Source: Siphonobacter curvatus
GTDB taxonomy: Bacteria > Bacteroidota > Bacteroidia > Cytophagales > Spirosomataceae
Length of the DNA stretch: 24,000 nt
Direction: 5' to 3'
Assembly: GCF_002943425.1 (NCBI RefSeq)
Contig: NZ_PTRA01000002.1
Location: 100,090-124,089 of the forward strand
The notes under the pieces are model-generated. The model was not told the DNA's origin. It saw nothing but the letters and a program-made list of their open reading frames with translations, and ran no database searches. How positions within the stretch are numbered: the stretch's first letter is position 1; each line of letters opens with the position of its first letter. Made by a program: the position numbers and the translations under genes. Below, in pieces: positions 4,638-11,768 of the stretch.

Positions 4638-5690
4638 TTAGCCGGAAGGCTGCTCGATTATCAGAGGTGAACTGTCCTCTTGGTAATGTTCTAGGACTGC
4701 CCGAGCGTTCTTCATCATTCGATCCCTGAGCATGCGGGGCCGTAGTACCTTTATCTTCCCGCCAAAGCCAAGGAATTCCCGTTCCAGTTCAAAGTTGACA
4801 ATAACCCGGATGCGAAATACTGAACCCAATGAATCTTTGGAGAGCAACTCCTGCGACGCATGCAGGGGTTTCGTAACCACATAGGGGGCATTGGAGGCAG
4901 CAACCCAGAAAACCACTTCACAGTTTTTCTGACCAGGGGTCTTGGTTACGCCAATTACATCGGAATAAAAGGTTTGTAAATCCAGGATCTCGTTGGGGCG
5001 ATAGGCTTCATTCAAATCTTCCTGCAAGGCATGAATCCGATCTAAGGCTAACGTGAGAATAGGCTTACGCTTCTGATGCGATTGCCCGAGTATAAACCAG
5101 CGGTTGCGATACTCTTTTAACAGATACGGACTAAAACAGAACGTAGCCGACTGCCGGGCCCGGAAGGATTGGTACGTCATACAAAGCGTTGTTTTCGAAA
5201 CAATGGCCTTCCGAATGGTTTCGATGTAATTCAATCCCAGTAAATGCTCATTCTTTTCAAAATCCACTACTGGTAAACTGCTCGTTTGCTGGGTGTAAAT
5301 CTTGTCCTGCAGTTTACTAACCATTTCCCGCAAGTCCGCAAAGTGGTTCAGTCCTTTGAATTGTTGTAATAAACCCGCCACTTCCCCCAGGAGTTGCATA
5401 TCCTGAGCATTCAAAGGAATGTTGGTGATGCTGAAATGCTTATCGGCGTAGGTATAATACTTGCGGTCCACTACGATAATGGGAGCTTCATAGCCCAGTT
5501 TCGAACTTCGCATCATCTCCAGATCGGACTGAACGGTTCGACGGCTTACCCCCTTTTCAAGGCCCTGATACTCGTACAGGGCTTGTGAACAGGCTTCCAT
5601 CAAATCCTCCAGAGTCCACGTGCGGTATCGATTCTGCAGACATTGATCAATGGTTCGGTAGCGAATGAGGGCGTTGCGATTGAGCGGCAT
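4638..5690 (-). CDS. WYL domain-containing transcriptional regulator (N-terminal HTH)
   Basis: 350 aa. The N-terminus MPLNRNALIRYRTIDQCLQNRYRTWTLEDLMEAC...GVSRRTVQSDLEMMR is the HTH module typical of Bacteroidota WYL regulators. The central region (FSPYLLKEYRNRWFILG) fits the WYL core. It is transcribed divergently from the Ro60 gene. Confidence 0.8.
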   Translation of the reverse strand: MPLNRNALIRYRTIDQCLQNRYRTWTLEDLMEACSQALYEYQGLEKGVSRRTVQSDLEMMRSSKLGYEAPIIVVDRKYYTYADKHFSITNIPLNAQDMQLLGEVAGLLQQFKGLNHFADLREMVSKLQDKIYTQQTSSLPVVDFEKNEHLLGLNYIETIRKAIVSKTTLCMTYQSFRARQSATFCFSPYLLKEYRNRWFILGQSHQKRKPILTLALDRIHALQEDLNEAYRPNEILDLQTFYSDVIGVTKTPGQKNCEVVFWVAASNAPYVVTKPLHASQELLSKDSLGSVFRIRVIVNFELEREFLGFGGKIKVLRPRMLRDRMMKNARAVLEHYQEDSSPLIIEQPSG

Positions 5691-5752: not shown

Positions 5753-5791
5753 CTTAAACCTTTGTATCGTCAACGGAAAACAAAGACAGTT

Positions 5792-7354
5792 ATGAAATTC
5801 AATACAACGCCTCAACAAAGTCAGCCGATCCTGAACCATGAAGGAGCGAAAGCCTACCGCATGAATCCAGCTCTGGAGTTGTATTCAACCGTAGTAACCT
5901 GGTCTTTGAATGATACCTTTTACGAGCCCAATGATGAGCGACTCATCCGGATACGCAATCTGATTGCTCAGAATGATCCGGGTTTTGTAGCAAAACTGGC
6001 CATTTACGCCCGGCATGAGATGTATCTGCGTTCGGCTCCTCTGGTACTACTGGCAGAATTGGCCCGTATTCACTCCGGGGATGACCTCGTCGCCCGAATG
6101 ACGGAGCGGGTCATTGCCCGTGCCGATGAAATTACGGAGCTGCTGGCCTGCTATCAGGCTCTAAACGAACGAACCGGTTTGAAAAAACTCAATCGGTTAT
6201 CTAAGCAACTGCAAAAAGGGCTGGCTTCGGCATTTAACCAATTTGATGCGTATCAATTTGCTAAATACAATCGAAATACGGCTATCAAACTGCGGGATGC
6301 CTTGTTTTTAGTTCATCCCAAAGCTAAAAATCTAGCTCAACAGGAAATTTTCAATCAGATTGTAACCAACACATTACCTGTACCCTATACCTGGGAAACC
6401 GAATTGTCAGCGTTGGGGCAGCAAAAGTTTAAATTAGCCACAGAAAAAGAGGCTGCCTTTCAGCAAAAGTGGGAAGAACTGATCGATAGTAACAAACTGG
6501 GGTACATGGCTTTGCTGCGAAACCTGCGAAATGTGTTCGAAGCCGGGGTCTCGTATGCACATCTGAAAAAAGCCGTCAATACTTTAGCCTCGCCTGAACA
6601 GGTCGCCCGGTCGAAGCAGTTTCCCTTCCGCTATTTAGCCGCTTATCGTGAGTTACAGGGAACGGAAATGAAACGTCCTAAGCAGGAAGGCTGGATTGGA
6701 AAAGTTTTCAGTGGTCAAGGGTACGTAGGAGAGGTTTTGGACGGATTGGAAAAGGCCGTAGTTCAAAGTGCCCGTCGGATTCAGGGTTTCGATGAACATA
6801 CCCGCGTACTGTTAGCCTGCGACGTATCGGGCTCGATGCAGAAGCCTGTTTCACCGCAGTCCAGTATCTTACTTTACGATATTGGTTTGATGCTAGCTAT
6901 GCTGTTACAATCCCGTTGCAGGAATGTACAGGTTGGAATGTTCGGCGATAGCTGGAAGCGAATTCAGGTTCCTAAAAATCGAATCCTCGCCAATGTGCAT
7001 GAATTCTATAAACGAGAGGGAGAGGTAGGCTATGCTACTAATGGTTATCTAGTATTAAAAGAACTGATAGACCGCCGCCAGAAAATGGATAAAATCATGT
7101 TTTTCACGGATTTGCAGCTCTGGAACAGCGGCTCAGGGAGCGATCAGCTAAGTAAGCTGTGGGGGAAGTATAAACAGGAGATTCACCCTTCAGCCCGTCT
7201 GTATTTGTTTGACTTAAGTGGTTACGGCAAAACGCCCCTACAAGTCCTCCGGAATGATGTATACCTGATTGCGGGCTGGAGTGATAAAATCTTCGGGGTA
7301 CTGGAAGCCCTTGAAAAGGGTGAGTCAATTCTGGAAATGATTATGAATTATTGA
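5792..7354 (+). CDS. rsr: Ro60 ortholog (Rsr): TROVE domain plus C-terminal vWA domain
   Basis: The N-terminus NHEGAKAYRMNPALELYSTVVTWSLNDTFYEPNDERL...YARHEMYLRSAP is a TROVE signature. The C-terminal LLACDVSGSM is a vWA MIDAS DxSxS motif. The start is placed at ATG 5792 (MKFNTTPQQ) rather than the TTG at 5762 given by the ORF track. Confidence 0.9.
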   Translation: MKFNTTPQQSQPILNHEGAKAYRMNPALELYSTVVTWSLNDTFYEPNDERLIRIRNLIAQNDPGFVAKLAIYARHEMYLRSAPLVLLAELARIHSGDDLVARMTERVIARADEITELLACYQALNERTGLKKLNRLSKQLQKGLASAFNQFDAYQFAKYNRNTAIKLRDALFLVHPKAKNLAQQEIFNQIVTNTLPVPYTWETELSALGQQKFKLATEKEAAFQQKWEELIDSNKLGYMALLRNLRNVFEAGVSYAHLKKAVNTLASPEQVARSKQFPFRYLAAYRELQGTEMKRPKQEGWIGKVFSGQGYVGEVLDGLEKAVVQSARRIQGFDEHTRVLLACDVSGSMQKPVSPQSSILLYDIGLMLAMLLQSRCRNVQVGMFGDSWKRIQVPKNRILANVHEFYKREGEVGYATNGYLVLKELIDRRQKMDKIMFFTDLQLWNSGSGSDQLSKLWGKYKQEIHPSARLYLFDLSGYGKTPLQVLRNDVYLIAGWSDKIFGVLEALEKGESILEMIMNY

Positions 7355-7434
7355 TTTTAATAACGCTTAACGGTAAGGTTTTCACACCTAACTGTGCTTA
7401 GTACGGTACGGGCTAAGTTTTAGAAGCCCAGCCC

Positions 7435-7556
7435 AAAGGATGCCGTAGCATCGGGATACTTCGCAGCATGTAGGGGGGGGCATTATGACTTCGGTCAGGA
7501 TGGAGGTTCGAGTCCTCTTTGCGATACCCCGCTCCCGATTCGCCCGTCGCTCCTTT
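7435..7556 (+). ncRNA. Y-RNA-like module 1: tRNA-like cloverleaf with a UUCG-capped stub replacing the anticodon arm
   Basis: Leader box AAGGATGCCGTAG lies at 7436-7448. The T-arm is GGAGG-TTCGAGT-CCTCT (7502-7518). The stub is TGAC-TTCG-GTCA (7486-7497). The D-like arm is ATG-loop(TAGGGGGGGG)-CAT (7468-7483). An acceptor-like stem pairs 7461-7466 with 7519-7524. An outer stem pairs ATCGGGA (7450-7456) with TCCCGAT (7533-7539). A closing stem pairs AAAGGA (7435-7440) with TCCTTT (7551-7556). Confidence 0.7.
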
Positions 7557-7609
7557 CAATATCGTTATTGAACTTGAAATCCGTTCGTTACTTTTCTAAA
7601 TGCTTTTAT

Positions 7610-8368
7610 ATGAAAGATAGAATCGCTAGCCTTTTTATGGACAAAAGCGAAATTCCGCTTTTTTACATTGAAAGTGGGAGTCGGCTTTGGGGGATTGCCA
7701 GTCCCGATAGTGACTTTGATGTGCGAGGTTTTCACCTTCCGGCCAAAACAAATTACTTCGATTTTAAGAAACAGCGGGATGTATGGGAGGTAATGGATGG
7801 AGAACTGGATTTTGTATCATACGATCTGGATAAGATGTTTGGATTGTTACAAAAAAGTAACCCTACAGTTTTTGAGTGGGTGCGAGCCGATCTGATGTAT
7901 TGGAATGAACTACCTGATTGGGATACATTTCGTAGTGAAGTTAGCGAAAATATCAATTTTAAAGCTCTTTACTATCATTACCACTCGTTGGCTAAGAGTC
8001 ACTTTTACAAGCTGGAAAGCGATCAGAAGTTTACGTATAAAGTAGCGTTTTACTGCATGCGGGGTCTTCTGTCCGCGGAATTAGCCAGCCGGCAAGTAGT
8101 GCCAGAGCTTTTGATCGACGATCTCTTCAAGCAGTTTAATACTGAATCTGAGGTGATCAAACTTGCAAAGGCTAGTCTGGAAAGAAAAAGACAGCAAACG
8201 GAAAAAGAAGAAATAAAGGAAGAAGATAAACAAAAGATCATACAAGGCATTAAAGCTTATTTATATCGTTTTGAGAGCATTACGCCAGGAGGTAGTTCAA
8301 CTCAGGCAAAATTGGATAGAGTTCTAACGAATTATAGTGTTCAAATAAAATCCATGTTTTATGCCTGA
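7610..8368 (+). CDS. RlaP-type (YcgL-like, pol-beta superfamily) nucleotidyltransferase associated with RNA-repair loci
   Basis: The motif ESGSRLWGIASPDSDFDVRGFH matches the nucleotidyltransferase signature G-S-x9-13-D-x-D. The start is placed at ATG 7610 (MKDRIASLF), because the listed TTG at 7568 adds 14 poorly coding residues. The gene lies between tRNA-like RNA modules and downstream of rsr. Confidence 0.75.
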   Translation: MKDRIASLFMDKSEIPLFYIESGSRLWGIASPDSDFDVRGFHLPAKTNYFDFKKQRDVWEVMDGELDFVSYDLDKMFGLLQKSNPTVFEWVRADLMYWNELPDWDTFRSEVSENINFKALYYHYHSLAKSHFYKLESDQKFTYKVAFYCMRGLLSAELASRQVVPELLIDDLFKQFNTESEVIKLAKASLERKRQQTEKEEIKEEDKQKIIQGIKAYLYRFESITPGGSSTQAKLDRVLTNYSVQIKSMFYA

Positions 8369-8444
8369 ATGGATACCGGCTGGTATTAAAAATGCAGCTT
8401 TACAAAGCCGAAGGTGTTACTGACTTGGTAGCAAAAACTAGTTT

Positions 8445-8568
8445 TAAGGATGTCGTAGAAACGGGTTACTTCGTATGGAATCTACTGAGAGTGAGCCTAT
8501 TGACCAGGTCAGTAGGTAGGTTCGAATCCTCTGAAAGGTCACCCACCCGAATTGCTGGTTACTCCTGA
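8445..8568 (+). ncRNA. Y-RNA-like module 2 (degenerate paralog of module 1)
   Basis: Leader box AAGGATGTCGTAG lies at 8446-8458. CTTCG at 8469-8473 is at the same offset as in module 1. The T-arm-like element is GTAGG-TTCGAAT-CCTCT (8516-8532), with one U-C mismatch. A hairpin TGAC-CAG-GTCA lies at 8501-8511. The stem CGGGT (8462-8466) / ACCCG (8545-8549) covaries with the module 1 stem. AGGA (8447-8450) pairs with TCCT (8563-8566). Confidence 0.5.
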
Positions 8569-8598
8569 ATCATTACAACCCACCCGTTAACAAGAAAA

Positions 8599-8717
8599 GA
8601 AGGTGTCGTATCGCGGCGTTGCTTCGTGTCGCCGGTTCGAATCCGGCTCTGGTCAGCCAGGTAGCTCAGTAGGTAGAGCAGATTTTTGCCCCGAGCTTAT
8701 TACCCTTCTCCACCTTT
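8599..8717 (+). ncRNA. yrlA: YrlA-like Y RNA (module 3): circularly permuted tRNA mimic
   Basis: Leader box AAGGTGTCGTA lies at 8600-8610. The T-arm GCCGG-TTCGAAT-CCGGC (8631-8647) is perfect. It is followed by a closed acceptor-like hairpin TCTGG-TCAG-CCAGG (8648-8661), then TA, then a canonical D-arm GCTC-AGTAGGTA-GAGC (8664-8679). A stem pairs 8611-8618 with 8687-8694. A closing stem pairs AAGGTG (8600-8605) with CACCTT (8711-8716). Confidence 0.8.
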
Positions 8718-8838
8718 AAAGGTGCCGTAAAACAGTGATCCTTCGGTTAGAACATCCGTGCCGATGGGCCGGAAGGTCGCAGGTTCGAGCCCTGCCTTAT
8801 AGTTCAGTTAATAAAGCACTGTTTGCCTGTTGCCCTTT
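8718..8838 (+). ncRNA. Y-RNA-like module 4 (T-arm intact, D-arm decayed)
   Basis: Leader box AAGGTGCCGTA lies at 8719-8729. A variable-loop-like AGGTC (8774-8778) precedes a perfect T-arm GCAGG-TTCGAGC-CCTGC (8779-8795). The downstream TAGTTCAGTTAATAAAGCA (8800-8818) matches the module 3 D-arm segment at 14 of 19 positions, with the loop GG changed to AA. An 8-bp stem pairs AAACAGTG (8730-8737) with CACTGTTT (8817-8824). AAAGG (8718-8722) pairs with CCTTT (8834-8838), followed by a U-rich ATTATTTG. Confidence 0.55.
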
Positions 8839-9182
8839 ATTATTTGTGTAGCATTGGATTAATACGCTAATCTATACTTATTTTAAACGCTTAAACTTAT
8901 AATACAAAACTTGAATGACTTTAATATTTATAATCAACGAATTGTTAATTCTTCTCTAAGTATACATTAGGTAGTAATATGTAAGATTGTATTTAGTAAA
9001 TATCCTTATTAAATAGTTGCTTATCAAGTGGTGTGATTTGCAGTAAATTAAACGATTTAAACTTTAAATATTAATTAAGTAATAAAATAATTTAATCCAT
9101 AAGTATTATTTAATTTACTCAGGTATTAACCTCATATTTTGATAGAAGATTTTAAATAAAAAGTGTTTTCATTAATCATTTT

Positions 9183-9219
9183 AAAGAGTTGCCTGTTAGT
9201 TTACAGGCAACTCTTTTTT
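9183..9219 (+). terminator. Strong rho-independent terminator inside the AT-rich island
   Basis: AAAGAGTTGCCTGT (9183-9196) and ACAGGCAACTCTTT (9203-9216) form a 14-bp perfect stem with a 6-nt loop. The T-run spans 9214-9219. The better T-tract is on the plus strand. Confidence 0.75.
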
Positions 9220-9423
9220 AACTACACTTAATAAATGTAGTTAAGAATAATATTCCTCTAAAATAATTGACCTAACAAATGATCAAGATGCTTAAGTAAG
9301 GCTCAATGAGTAAGAAATGTACGATGTAGTAGCTAGCTCGATGCCCATAGCCTTCATCAAAATATGCTCAGAATTCATCTAATAACGTGATGTAGAATTG
9401 TGTTGTAGTAATTATTGATTTAT

Positions 9424-9445
9424 TTTGTAGTATTAATACTACAAA
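9424..9445. repeat. 22-bp perfect palindrome TTTGTAGTATTAATACTACAAA
   Basis: Read directly: 9424-9434 is the exact reverse complement of 9435-9445. It contains the TGTAGT motif on both strands. Confidence 0.9.
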
Positions 9446-9863
9446 TACATTTTGTACTTAAGAAGTAATGCTCATTTGATGATATTAAGCAATTAATATA
9501 TGTCATTAAATATCATAATTACTACTATAAAATGCGTAAGATATTTAGTATTTGTTTCAGTGTATCTTTTTTTTATAGTAAAGCTAGTTCTTATATACGT
9601 ATAAGTTTGTACAATAATTACTCAAGAAATTGTAGTTTTGTTAGTTTGAAAAAATATCAAAGTTTAACATTTAATAGTACTTAGCTATCTATTATGTGAT
9701 TAGCTGAGCTAAAATTTCCGAACTAGGTTTTGTCAGAATTCGAGGATCTGTTTTCGAATAATTGAATCAAAATGTATAGGAAATTACGATCCTTCCTATC
9801 AGCTGATACATGATTTAGCAATAATGGCAACTCTAGTTATCCTATTAGTCCTGATTAAATACC

Positions 9864-10592
9864 ATGAATTTATTGATTTTAGAAGATGAACGGAAAGCGG
9901 CGAATGAATTGAAACAATCTTTGGAAAACCTGAGGAGCGACCTTCACGTTTGTGCTATCCTGCCGTCCATTGAAGAAGCACGTACTTGGCTGTCCACTCA
10001 TGATGCACCAGATCTTATTTTTGCTGATATAATCTTATCCGACGGTAAAGTCTTCCATCTCTTTAAAGAGATAGAAGTAAAGTCTCCCGTAATCTTCTGC
10101 ACCGCTTACGATGAATTCGCTTTGGAAGCCTTTGAAGCGAATGGCATTGATTATTTACTAAAACCCATTGAAGAAGAAAAGCTACAGCGAAGTTTGGAAA
10201 AGGTAGAAAGGCTGAAAAATGTTTTTTCGCATCAGTCTTTTCTCGAAGACATGAGTCGCCCAAAGAATATATTCGTTCACTTTCGTGATAAGTTAATTCC
10301 TATCGAGCCTACGGCGATCAATTATATATATACACATAACCATGTCGCTTACATTCACACGGATTCCCAGCAGTATGAGATCCGTGAAACATTAGATGAA
10401 CTTGCTTTACTACTGCCTGAGCGTGATTTTTACCGGGCTAATCGACAATACATCATTCCACAGCGAAAAGTACAGCACGTAGAACGTAGTTTTACCCGAA
10501 AATTGACCGTAAAATTAACCGTACCTACTCCTCAACCCGTTGTAGTTAGTAAAGCCAGAGCATCTGAATTTTTACAATGGCTGAAAAACTAG
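9864..10592 (+). CDS. LytTR/AlgR-family response regulator (REC plus LytTR DNA-binding domain)
   Basis: 242 aa. The REC domain shows the acidic pocket LILEDE and the phospho-acceptor context LIFADIILSDG, followed by CTAYDEFALEAFEANGIDYLLKP. The C-terminal part (YRANRQYIIPQRKVQHVE) is typical of LytTR domains. No kinase gene is adjacent. Confidence 0.85.
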   Translation: MNLLILEDERKAANELKQSLENLRSDLHVCAILPSIEEARTWLSTHDAPDLIFADIILSDGKVFHLFKEIEVKSPVIFCTAYDEFALEAFEANGIDYLLKPIEEEKLQRSLEKVERLKNVFSHQSFLEDMSRPKNIFVHFRDKLIPIEPTAINYIYTHNHVAYIHTDSQQYEIRETLDELALLLPERDFYRANRQYIIPQRKVQHVERSFTRKLTVKLTVPTPQPVVVSKARASEFLQWLKN

Positions 10593-11114: not shown

Positions 11115-11768
11115 ATGAAAAATGTCCTCATTTGCGAAGATCACCCCGTCGTAGGTTTAGGAATCAAGTACTTATTAGAATCTAACTTTCCTAAATTGAA
11201 CGTTTACCTCTGTAGTGATTATGAGCAAGCCTTGCACTACTTTAGCACATTGCCCATTTATATGCTAGTACTAGATTTGAATGTGCCGGGGGGTAATTCA
11301 ATCAAAATGCTGGAAACTTTTCTTTACAAACAACAGCAAGCTCGCATACTGGTTTTTTCGGCCTATGATGAAAAAGTTTACGCTTTACCCTGTCTGAAAG
11401 CGGGTGCAAAAGGTTATATCTCCAAGCACGCTGCTCAAGAAGAGGTACTGCTGGCGGTTAAAACAGTATTTAATAATGAGAAATATTTAAGTCCTCAAAT
11501 GCGGCAGGTTAGTATTGACAAACTGCTCCATCAGGCCGAGGAAGTCCATAACAATCCTTTGGAAAATCTATCAGATCGCGAAAAGGAAGTTTTACACTAC
11601 CTGGTAAAGGGCTATGGCCCCGCTGATATTGGACGGCAGCTCAACCTACATATATCCACCATCAGCACGGTCAAAAATCGGGTTTTTAGTAAGTTAGGGG
11701 TCAACAGTATCGTCTCCTTACTCGAAACCATGCGAGTACTTCAAAGTACGCCTTCCGTAGCAGTATAG
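11115..11768 (+). CDS. NarL/FixJ-family response regulator (REC plus LuxR-type HTH)
   Basis: 217 aa. The REC domain carries CEDHPVV and MLVLDLNVPGG. The C-terminal LSDREKEVLHYLVKGYGPADIGRQLNLHISTISTVKNRVFSKLGV is a LuxR/GerE HTH. Confidence 0.9.
   Translation: MKNVLICEDHPVVGLGIKYLLESNFPKLNVYLCSDYEQALHYFSTLPIYMLVLDLNVPGGNSIKMLETFLYKQQQARILVFSAYDEKVYALPCLKAGAKGYISKHAAQEEVLLAVKTVFNNEKYLSPQMRQVSIDKLLHQAEEVHNNPLENLSDREKEVLHYLVKGYGPADIGRQLNLHISTISTVKNRVFSKLGVNSIVSLLETMRVLQSTPSVAV

What the first reader, a model, noticed from the sequence alone, without database searches (positions are those of the whole stretch)
8411..8838. Conserved 5' leader box AAGG(A)TGYCGTA...CTTCG defines the paralogous modules; tandem units share a palindromic junction
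Four modules start with the same box: AAGGATGCCGTAG (7436), AAGGATGTCGTAG (8446), AAGGTGTCGTA (8600) and AAGGTGCCGTA (8719). Each has CTTCG 22-23 nt downstream (7459, 8469, 8622, 8741). A fifth partial box, AAGGTGT, lies at 8411. Each box has a complementary CCTT-containing segment at the module 3' end (7551-7556, 8563-8566, 8711-8716, 8834-8838). This gives the long imperfect terminal helix expected for a Ro60-binding stem. Between modules 1 and 2 there are apparent compensatory changes (CGGGA/TCCCG versus CGGGT/ACCCG; GC/GC versus GT/AC next to the box). Modules 3 and 4 abut at a 14-nt perfect palindrome, CACCTTTAAAGGTG (8711-8724). The 3' strand of module 3 can therefore pair with either leader, which allows alternative or inter-module pairing. 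The box is a good candidate for the Rsr recognition element.
Basis: seen in the sequence. Interest (0 to 1): 0.7.

Follow-up and report, generated by a model that had tools for sequence, protein, structure and literature searches.

The report
Ro60-binding handle of bacterial Y RNAs
The repeated box is the conserved core of a stem that closes four small Y-RNA-like genes next to the Ro60 (rsr) gene; it is a Bacteroidota version of a known Ro60-binding motif, and the palindrome between two units is incidental.

Summary
The four boxes and the downstream CTTCG are at the stated coordinates and are far beyond chance. They mark four ~112-124-nt modules (7435-7556, 8445-8568, 8598-8709, 8717-8839) downstream of an rsr (Ro60) gene.

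Comparison with 52 Bacteroidota rsr loci and 120 metagenome loci shows that the "AAGG" part is only a variable, covarying helix. The conserved unit is: 6-bp helix, bulged U, G-Y:R-C, an asymmetric loop (5' CGUAR / 3' YGCYUKUY), a 7-bp helix, then WUACUUCG. Covariation is strong: 14 of 15 pairs show double changes, with a score of 0.93 against 0.26 when shuffled.

GYCGUA is a U-for-A variant of the published bacterial Y RNA motif GNCGAA, which resembles the vertebrate GGUCCGA that Ro60 contacts. Module 3 is YrlA-like (Rfam 44.6 bits, below the gathering score). Modules 1, 2 and 4 carry other heads.

In a search that started from the motif, 29 of 31 well-formed hits with enough flank lay beside rsr.

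The 14-nt palindrome and the fifth partial box are not conserved in the sister strain. Module 3's 3' strand is 8702-8709, not 8711-8716.

Verdict: Y RNA paralogs sharing a probable Rsr-binding handle, a new variant of a known kind. Rsr binding is inferred, not shown.

The parts
4638..5690 (-). WYL/WCX-domain transcription regulator, divergent from rsr
   Evidence: Pfam WYL and WCX. A homolog lies divergently upstream of rsr in 24 of 52 genome loci.
5762..7354 (+). rsr, the Ro60 ortholog (TROVE plus vWA_Ro60)
   Evidence: Pfam PF05731 at 2.8e-29 and PF25045. Matches the phage Ro60 structures 9KOP and 9L5Y at E=1e-28. 96% identical to Siphonobacter sp. BAB-5405.
7435..7556 (+). Module 1, a Y-RNA-like gene. 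Layout: s1 AAAGGA, bulged U7441, GC, CGUAG, s2, AUACUUCG (7456-7463), T-arm-like hairpin 7502-7518, 3' strand 7534-7556.
   Evidence: 8/8 and 6/7 closing pairs. It belongs to the conserved 'first module after rsr' family of 17 sequences. Weak tRNA hit of 17.9 bits. 3.3% divergence from the sister strain.
7568..8368 (+). RlaP (PF10127) nucleotidyltransferase. The likely start is the in-frame ATG at 7610.
   Evidence: Pfam 2.4e-43. The family adds 1-2 NMP to the 3'-OH of damaged RNAs (PMC12776372). A close ortholog sits at this position only in Siphonobacter.
8411..8417 (+). The 'fifth partial box' AAGGTGT. A chance match, not part of the system.
   Evidence: No CGTA or TTCG follows. Not conserved in L001. 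The spacer is 27.6% diverged. No profile hit.
8445..8568 (+). Module 2, a diverging paralog of module 1. Handle UAAGGA-U-GU-CGUAG...UUACUUCG, 3' strand ...UGCUGGUU-AC-UCCUGA.
   Evidence: 7/8 and 5/7 closing pairs, the weakest of the four. 8.1% divergence. The box G is mutated to A in the sister strain. It aligns with the module 1 family.
8598..8709 (+). Module 3, YrlA-type Y RNA. The handle is followed by T arm, closed acceptor-like hairpin, UA, and D arm (TAGCTCAGTAGGTAGAGC at 8662-8679). 3' strand AC-CCTTCT at 8702-8709.
   Evidence: Rfam YrlA RF02553 at 44.6 bits, E=4e-8, over the full model, but below the gathering score of 69. 8/8 and 6/7 pairs. 0.9% divergence.
8711..8724 (.). 14-nt palindrome CACCTTTAAAGGTG spanning the module 3/4 spacer and the module 4 leader. 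Incidental.
   Evidence: The upstream half is not conserved in L001, with 2 of 7 spacer positions changed. It is not the module 3 closing strand.
8717..8839 (+). Module 4, Y-RNA-like. Handle UAAAGG-U-GC-CGUAA...AUCCUUCG, then GGUUAGAAC, a hairpin, T-arm-like hairpin 8779-8795, and 3' strand UGCCUGUU-GC-CCUUUA. It is followed by a U-rich tail.
   Evidence: 8/8 and 7/7 pairs. It belongs to a conserved family with 20 of 25 pairs compensatory. 3.3% divergence.

Best explanation
The window carries an rsr (Ro60) cassette with four Y RNA paralogs on the rsr strand. Each RNA closes on itself through a shared 'handle'. The handle is a 6-bp variable helix, an invariant bulged U, a G-Y:R-C step, an asymmetric sequence-conserved internal loop (5' CGUAR opposite 3' YGCYUKUY), a 7-bp variable helix, and an almost invariant WUACUUCG.

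By homology with GNCGAA in other bacterial Y RNAs and GGUCCGA in vertebrate Y RNAs, the handle is the docking site for the Rsr ring. The variable apical 'heads' would be the effector-binding or gating part. Module 3 has a YrlA-type permuted tRNA mimic. Modules 1, 2 and 4 have T-arm-containing tRNA-like folds.

Shown here: the motif, the helices and their covariation, the conserved loop, and the linkage to rsr. Inferred: transcription from the rsr strand (possibly as one rsr-M1-rlaP-M2-M3-M4 precursor that is then processed), physical binding to Rsr, and a role with RlaP and exonucleases in quality control or repair of structured RNA and tRNA under a WYL regulator.
For: - The boxes are at the exact coordinates, with about 0 expected by chance.
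- Of + strand TGYCGTA boxes, 165 of 271 have at least 14 of 15 closing pairs. The figure is 0 of 42 on the minus strand and 3 of 271 after shuffling.
- Covariation on 125 modules: 97.4% of cells paired, 14 of 15 pairs with double changes, 615 compensatory cells against 162 shuffled, and a score of 0.934 against 0.259 shuffled and at most 0.21 when slid.
- Unselected positions are nearly invariant. UACUUCG is held in at least 115 of 132, G49 in 120 of 132 and U54 in 131 of 132.
- Anchoring on TACTTCG alone recovers TGYCGTA at a fixed distance 149 times, always with U at the bulge and never with CGAA.
- All 194 profile hits at E<0.01 are on the rsr strand. 186 are downstream of rsr, at a median of 473 nt.
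- In the reverse search of metagenomes by motif, 29 of 31 well-formed hits with at least 3 kb of upstream flank have rsr on the same strand. Only 2 of 22 chance-type hits do.
- Module 3 aligns end to end with Rfam YrlA.
- Published motif and contacts: PMC4201824. CGAA lies in an internal bulge of phage Yrl RNAs that were shown to bind Ro60: PMC12135203.
- Modules are more conserved than the neighbouring rlaP coding sequence (0.9-3.3% against 8.5%).
Against: - No binding or expression data exist for this organism.
- The motif is CGUA, not the published CGAA.
- No module reaches the Rfam YrlA gathering score, in the window or in 15 other Bacteroidota loci.
- Single-sequence folding energies are no better than shuffles, with z from -1.2 to +1.3.
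- The genome loci were fetched through Rsr, so that linkage is partly by construction. Only the metagenome test is independent.
- On phage contigs, well-formed handles lie in tRNA arrays with no rsr found in the flanks or on the contig for about 9 contigs. A partner other than a cis-encoded Rsr is therefore possible.
- Module 2 has a weaker stem (12 of 15) and drifts faster, so it may be decaying.
Confidence: 0.7

Rival explanations
1. The handle is a recognition or processing platform for some factor other than Rsr. Candidates are an RNase that excises units from tRNA-like polycistrons, PNPase, RlaP, or the WYL regulator. On this view the linkage to rsr is indirect.
For: Phage contigs carry well-formed handles, including minimal 65-74-nt units, embedded in arrays of 5-21 tRNA genes with no rsr in up to 13 kb of flank. 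In many Chitinophagales loci the modules are interleaved with tRNA genes. WUACUUCG is conserved even where it has no pairing partner, and it has no counterpart in the published Ro60 site.
Against: 29 of 31 independent metagenome hits lie beside rsr. Two of the phage 'orphans' have rsr elsewhere on the same contig. WYL and RlaP are present in only some of the loci, while rsr is in nearly all. The core resembles the published Ro60-contact motif. Phage Y RNAs could use the host Rsr.
Confidence: 0.17
2. The modules are decaying tRNA or dimeric-tRNA pseudogenes with no function of their own. The box would be a relic leader.
For: All modules have T-loop-like GGTTCGARYCC. Module 1 gives a weak tRNA hit. 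ARAGORN calls tRNAs inside some homologous modules. Module 2 is drifting.
Against: ARAGORN finds no tRNA in the window. Closing helices outside any tRNA fold are maintained by hundreds of compensatory changes across the phylum. Modules 1, 3 and 4 are more conserved than the adjacent coding sequence. Distinct module families are conserved across orders.
Confidence: 0.03
3. The palindrome at the module 3/4 junction lets the 3' strand of module 3 pair with either leader, giving regulated alternative or inter-module folding.
For: A perfect 14-nt palindrome exists at 8711-8724.
Against: The upstream half belongs to the 7-nt spacer, not to module 3's closing strand (8702-8709). It has 2 substitutions in the sister strain, while both flanking modules are 97-99% conserved. 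Other loci have unrelated U- or A-rich spacers. A palindrome with no loop can form at most about 5 bp.
Confidence: 0.03
4. The box is a DNA-level signal, such as a promoter, a recombination site or a mobile repeat, rather than an RNA element.
For: It is a short invariant sequence repeated at the start of each unit.
Against: The Y of G-Y covaries with a base more than 100 nt downstream (C:G 85, U:A 35), and the flanking 6 nt covary with the 3' end. Occurrence is strand-specific. No sigma-70-like or Bacteroidota -7 box lies at a consistent distance.
Confidence: 0.02

Closest known systems
YrlA (Rfam RF02553; S. Typhimurium YrlA; Chen et al. 2014, PMC4201824; structure in Wang et al. 2018, bioRxiv 10.1101/312249)
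   Same: It is encoded next to rsr on the same strand. The 5' and 3' ends pair into a stem that carries a short conserved 5'-strand motif. A conserved UA follows the second helix (YUAY). Module 3 has the same permuted tRNA mimic: T arm, closed acceptor-like hairpin, UA, D arm.
   Different: The motif is GYCGUAR, never GNCGAA. An invariant bulged U and a conserved 3' loop YGCYUKUY are present, whereas only the 5' strand is recognisable in the Salmonella and Mycobacterium RNAs. UACUUCG is extended and nearly invariant. Scores fall below the Rfam gathering threshold. Three of the four modules lack the D arm and have the T arm late.
Metazoan Y RNAs and D. radiodurans Yrn1
   Same: A bulged helix formed by the RNA ends is the Ro60 site. 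Both strands of the site are conserved here, as in Yrn1 and metazoan Y RNAs. In modules 1, 2 and 4 the T-arm-like hairpin lies toward the 3' side, the orientation reported for Yrn1 as opposed to YrlA (PMC4201824).
   Different: The sequence differs (GGUCCGA with a bulged C against U-bulge-GYCGUA). Metazoan Y RNAs have no tRNA-like domain.
Short Y RNAs: S. Typhimurium YrlB and Thermus phage phiLo Yrl1/Yrl2 (PMC12135203)
   Same: They are minimal stem, internal bulge, stem RNAs that carry the C-G-A/U-A motif, are encoded beside Ro60, and occur in several per locus. The 65-74-nt Bacteroidota and phage modules found here have the same plan.
   Different: CGAA against CGUA. The Bacteroidota units come in arrays of up to 8 or more and share the extra WUACUUCG element.
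tRNA genes and tRNA gene arrays
   Same: T-loop consensus, tandem head-to-tail organisation, and interleaving with real tRNA genes in related loci and in phages.
   Different: No cloverleaf is accepted by ARAGORN or Rfam in the window. The closing stem with the conserved internal loop lies outside any tRNA fold.

Membership tests
Bacterial Y RNA (Ro60/Rsr-associated ncRNA) | Encoded within a few kb of the Ro60 ortholog on the same strand | tested here: met
   The modules lie 81-1485 nt after the rsr stop on the + strand. 186 of 194 homologous leaders are downstream of rsr. 29 of 31 motif-first metagenome hits have rsr.
Bacterial Y RNA (Ro60/Rsr-associated ncRNA) | 5' and 3' ends pair into a long stem with a bulge or internal loop holding the Ro60 site | tested here: met
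   Covariation on 125 modules: 14 of 15 pairs with double changes, score 0.934 against 0.259. Window modules pair at 12-15 of 15 positions.
Bacterial Y RNA (Ro60/Rsr-associated ncRNA) | Physically bound by Ro60/Rsr | not testable with these tools
   Needs EMSA or RIP. Only linkage and motif similarity are available.
Bacterial Y RNA (Ro60/Rsr-associated ncRNA) | 5'-strand motif GNCGAA(N0-1)G, or 'CGAA' in an internal bulge | tested here: not met
   The motif here is G-Y-C-G-U-A-R, a 5 of 6 match. Among 152 handles anchored on TACTTCG there were 0 with CGAA, 149 with CGUA and 3 with CGCA. It is read as a lineage-specific variant, not a literal match.
YrlA (Rfam RF02553) | Score at or above the Rfam gathering threshold (69 bits) | tested here: not met
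   Module 3 scores 44.6 bits (E=4e-8). Modules 1, 2 and 4 give no hit. There is no YrlA hit at the gathering score in 15 other Bacteroidota loci.
YrlA (Rfam RF02553) | Permuted tRNA-like domain: T arm, closed acceptor-like hairpin, UA, D arm | tested here: met
   Met for module 3 only (alignment; D arm at 8662-8679). It is not present in modules 1, 2 and 4, which have no D arm and a late T arm.
YrlA (Rfam RF02553) | Conserved YUAY after the second helix | tested here: inconclusive
   The phylum consensus is W-U-A-C (U 130, A 115, C 128 of 132). In the window, module 2 has UUAC, module 1 AUAC, module 3 UUGC and module 4 AUCC.
tRNA gene | Cloverleaf accepted by ARAGORN, or Rfam tRNA at 29 bits or more | tested here: not met
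   ARAGORN finds 0 genes in the window. The best Rfam tRNA score is 17.9 bits, for module 1.

The most novel reading that the evidence does not exclude
Bacteroidota and their phages maintain large, diversified repertoires of Y RNAs that share one Rsr handle (U-bulge, GYCGUAR, WUACUUCG / YGCYUKUY-RC). The heads differ: tRNA-like, anticodon-loop-like or minimal. These RNAs are embedded in or next to arrays of tRNA genes for typical anticodon-nuclease targets. The repertoire would act in tRNA-centred conflicts in one of two ways. It could serve as adaptors that direct Rsr and exonuclease, or RlaP repair, to particular damaged tRNAs. Or it could serve as decoys for tRNA-cleaving toxins, with phages supplying their own handle-bearing RNAs to co-opt or block the host Rsr.
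Probability: 0.2. Interest if true: 0.75.

Novelty: new variant of a known kind. Interest (0 to 1): 0.45.

Why it matters
Y RNAs are the obligate partners of the Ro60 autoantigen, yet the RNA features that bacterial Ro60 recognises are known only from a handful of species. This analysis defines a two-stranded, covariation-supported handle for a whole phylum. It has invariant positions (bulged U, G11, U54, UACUUCG) that can be mutated directly.

Current Rfam-based annotation misses these RNAs. One Rsr may be served by three to eight different Y RNAs. That makes the 'one handle, many heads' idea of Y RNA function testable in cultivable soil and gut Bacteroidota, a phylum whose commensal Ro60 orthologs are discussed in the lupus literature.

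For genome annotation, these units should not be called tRNAs or left as empty intergenic DNA.

Tried and rejected
- Rfam at gathering thresholds gave nothing in the window.
- Single-sequence MFE folding of each module and of the 411-nt tandem gave z-scores near zero. It is not informative by itself.
- Sigma-70 promoter and terminator scans, and a search for the Bacteroidota -7 box TAnnTTTG, gave no consistent signal. Transcription units remain unresolved.
- A relaxed box search that allowed CGAA and any bulge base produced mostly false positives in coding DNA and was dropped.
- Extending the helix through the internal loop (G11·U54, U12·K53, A13-U52, R14-Y51) gave no covariation. It was rejected as a helix and kept as a conserved loop.
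- The fifth partial box and the palindrome were rejected on conservation.
- Literature searches for Y RNAs or YrlA in Bacteroidetes found nothing in the held library. The supplements of Chen 2014, two reviews and Burroughs & Aravind 2016 were not available. Prior listing of some Bacteroidetes YrlA candidates therefore cannot be excluded.
- Residue-level comparison of Rsr RNA-contact residues was not attempted.

Full report
**1. The observation**

AAGGATGCCGTA is at 7436 and AAGGATGTCGTA at 8446. AAGGTGTCGTA is at 8600 and AAGGTGCCGTA at 8719. Dinucleotide shuffles give about zero matches, and there is no further copy in the 24-kb window.

CTTCG follows each box at a fixed distance. Each unit also contains a T-loop-like GGTTCGARYCC. 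AAGGTGT is at 8411 and the palindrome CACCTTTAAAGGTG is at 8711-8724. The sequence-level observation therefore holds.

**2. Context**

The ORF at 5762-7354 is a Ro60 ortholog with TROVE and Ro60-vWA domains. The ORF at 7568-8368 is an RlaP nucleotidyltransferase (PF10127). The divergent ORF at 4638-5690 is a WYL/WCX regulator. The Rsr protein matches the solved phage Ro60 structure.

The RlaP family was recently shown to add one or two nucleotides to the 3'-OH of damaged RNAs, including tRNA (PMC12776372). ARAGORN finds no tRNA in the window, and Rfam finds nothing at gathering thresholds. With E-value reporting, unit 3 (8597-8713) aligns end to end with YrlA (RF02553) at 44.6 bits and E=4e-8. 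That is below the gathering score of 69. Unit 1 gives only a weak tRNA hit.

**3. Relatives**

A scan of species-representative genomes with the Rsr protein gave 52 Bacteroidota loci. The nearest is Siphonobacter sp. BAB-5405, at 96% protein identity. TGYCGTA occurs in tandem + strand copies just downstream of rsr in almost all of them.

For each box I looked downstream for the complement of the six bases before the T, plus R-C opposite G-Y. Nearly all array boxes have a perfect partner 60-250 nt away. The six bases differ freely between units, for example AGGAGG/CCTCCT, GAGCGG/CCGCTC and CCGGAA/TTCCGG.

When a second 7-bp helix is added, 165 of 271 + strand boxes reach at least 14 of 15 pairs. 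The figure is 0 of 42 for minus-strand boxes and 3 of 271 after shuffling the downstream sequence.

**4. Anatomy of the conserved unit**

In 132 distinct units with an 8-nt 3' loop, the 5' strand reads as follows:
- a variable, purine-rich 6-nt helix strand;
- U;
- G-Y;
- C-G-U-A;
- R at 88%;
- a 7-nt helix strand;
- W-U-A-C-U-U-C-G, with positions 23-29 held in at least 115 of 132 although they were not selected for.

The 3' strand reads: helix strand, Y-G-C-Y-U-K-U-Y (G in 120 of 132 and the penultimate U in 131 of 132), R-C, helix strand.

On an ungapped alignment of 125 units (A2), 97.4% of cells pair and 14 of 15 pairs show changes on both sides. There are 615 compensatory cells, against 162 in shuffles. 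The covariation score is 0.934, against 0.259 shuffled and at most 0.21 when partners are slid. These units were chosen for good pairing, which inflates the percentage paired but not the diversity of pair types.

Pairing across the internal loop shows no covariation, so it is a sequence-conserved loop and not a helix.

Anchoring only on TACTTCG gives 244 sites against about 56 expected. It recovers TGYCGTA at the fixed distance 149 times and TGYCGTT 19 times. The bulge base is always U, and CGAA never occurs.

The real box is U-G-Y-C-G-U-A-R, and CTTCG is part of a longer element, UACUUCG.

**5. The four window units**

| Unit | Coordinates | Outer-helix pairs | Inner-helix pairs |
|---|---|---|---|
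| M1 | 7435-7556 | 8/8 | 6/7 |
| M2 | 8445-8568 | 7/8 | 5/7 |
| M3 | 8598-8709 | 8/8 | 6/7 |
| M4 | 8717-8839 | 8/8 | 7/7 |

All four have an 8-nt 3' loop.

M3's closing strand is AC-CCTTCT at 8702-8709, as the Rfam alignment also shows.

M3 has the YrlA order: T arm, closed hairpin, UA, D arm. M1 and M2 belong to a family that is typically the first unit after rsr across several orders (17 sequences). M4 belongs to another family (UUCGGUUAGAAC, hairpin, T-arm-like hairpin) in which 20 of 25 predicted pairs show compensatory change. Across the phylum the heads range from YrlA-type to T-arm-only to none at all (units of about 68-72 nt), while the handle stays constant.

**6. Comparison with the sister strain**

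| Region | Divergence from Siphonobacter BAB-5405 |
|---|---|
| M3 | 0.9% |
| M1 | 3.3% |
| M4 | 3.3% |
| M2 | 8.1% |
| rlaP | 8.5% |
| rlaP-M2 spacer | 27.6% |

In M2 the box G is changed to A in the sister strain. The rlaP-M2 spacer holds the 'fifth box', which becomes TGATGTCT there. Two of the seven bases between M3 and M4 differ, which destroys the palindrome (CCACCTTT to CTACCCTT) while both flanking units are conserved.

The palindrome and the fifth box are therefore incidental. M2 looks like a drifting duplicate of M1, created around the rlaP insertion. A close RlaP ortholog sits at this position only in Siphonobacter.

**7. Specificity for rsr**

A profile of the 5' strand finds 194 hits at E<0.01 in 457 kb. 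All are on the rsr strand, and 186 are downstream of rsr at a median of 473 nt. In the window it finds only the four units.

Those loci were fetched through Rsr, so I ran the reverse test. A metagenome scan for TGYCGTARNNNNGNGWTACTTCG returned 120 loci. Among hits with at least 14 of 15 closing pairs and at least 3 kb of upstream flank, 29 of 31 have an Rsr homolog, always on the same strand. Among hits with at most 12 pairs (chance matches), 2 of 22 do.

**8. A caveat from phages**

The same pattern in IMG/VR gave 23 loci. Well-formed handles, including minimal 65-74-nt units, sit inside phage tRNA arrays. L177 has 21 tRNAs, L187 has 15, and L190 has 13 tRNAs plus a tmRNA.

Rsr is in the flank in seven loci, often just downstream of the unit. 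It lies elsewhere on the same contig for two more, L183 and L190. It was not detected for about nine contigs. That search kept only the best 80 of 115 hits, and the loci cover only part of each contig. These RNAs may use the host Rsr, or the handle may have another partner. This is the main rival explanation.

**9. Comparison with what is known**

Chen et al. 2014 describe GNCGAA(N0-1)G near the 5' end of YrlA and YrlB. It overlaps the sequences needed for Rsr binding in D. radiodurans and resembles the GGUCCGA contacted by Xenopus Ro60. They also describe a conserved YUAY. The UA of that motif makes a kink in the YrlA crystal structure. Phage phiLo Yrl RNAs, identified by a CGAA in an internal bulge, bind phage Ro60.

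The Bacteroidota handle matches this plan. It differs in five ways:
- U replaces A in the core;
- the bulged U is invariant;
- the 3' loop is conserved;
- UACUUCG is extended;
- the units are multiplied, at 3-8 per locus.

No YrlA hit reaches the gathering score in 15 Bacteroidota loci. I found no paper on Bacteroidetes Y RNAs in the held library. Chen's supplementary tables were not available.

**10. Verdict**

The finding is real. It is best read as the 5' half of the Rsr-binding handle of four Y RNA paralogs. It is a lineage-specific variant of a known kind of RNA, not a new kind. Rsr binding is inferred. The palindrome-based pairing idea is not supported.

Noticed in passing
L010, L017, L022, L031, L033, L034, L038, L039, L043, L047 (e.g. 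L038 6167-8441, L039 6667-8333): In many Chitinophagales and other Bacteroidota rsr loci, the Y-RNA-like units are interleaved with or followed by arrays of 6-15 genuine tRNA genes on the same strand. The set includes Lys-UUU, Asn-GUU, Asp-GUC, His-GUG, Tyr-GUA, Gln-UUG, Glu-UUC, Phe-GAA, Arg-ACG, Pro-UGG and Leu-UAG, which is reminiscent of anticodon-nuclease targets. There is no such array in the window.
   Followed up: partly
L177 3883-4014; L187 259-387 and 1828-1948 (minus strand); L188, L190, L192, L195, L176, L180: IMG/VR phage contigs carry well-formed handles, some only 65-74 nt long, inside large phage tRNA arrays (up to 21 tRNAs, one with a tmRNA). For about nine contigs no rsr was detected. 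Where phage rsr is present, it is often immediately downstream of the unit.
   Followed up: partly
L009 5649-5724, L030 5930-5997, L038 5661-5742, L039 6256-6324: ARAGORN calls 'tRNAs' inside some homologous units. There the UUCG of the second box starts a 4-5-bp stem with a 7-nt anticodon-like loop (e.g. CUGUUAA, UUCAGGU), followed by a T arm. These are likely mis-annotations of Y-RNA heads.
   Followed up: partly
window 4638-5690 (-): A WYL/WCX regulator is divergently transcribed from rsr. A homolog occupies the same position in 24 of 52 genome loci and in many metagenome loci. This is the place that RtcR holds in proteobacterial rsr-rtcBA operons.
   Followed up: partly
window 7392-7421: A hairpin (GCTTAG...CTAAG) followed by TTTT lies between the rsr stop and unit 1. 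It was flagged as terminator-like and is fully conserved in the sister strain. It overlaps a loose Bacteroidota -7-like TAAGTTTT. Its role as terminator, attenuator or promoter is not resolved.
   Followed up: no
window 7557-7609: The sister strain has a 23-nt deletion just after unit 1 that removes the TTG start listed for the rlaP ORF. The in-frame ATG at 7610 is the more likely start.
   Followed up: partly
window 8418-8429 and 8503-8514: A 12-nt inverted repeat (11 of 12 complementary) links the spacer upstream of unit 2 with the interior hairpin of unit 2. The spacer arm is partly altered in the sister strain. It may be a remnant of the duplication that made unit 2.
   Followed up: no
window 8850-9860: About 1 kb of AT-rich sequence after the array has no ORF of 80 aa or more, and is followed by two response-regulator genes (LytTR at 9864-10592, LuxR-type at 11115-11768). 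It was not examined further.
   Followed up: no
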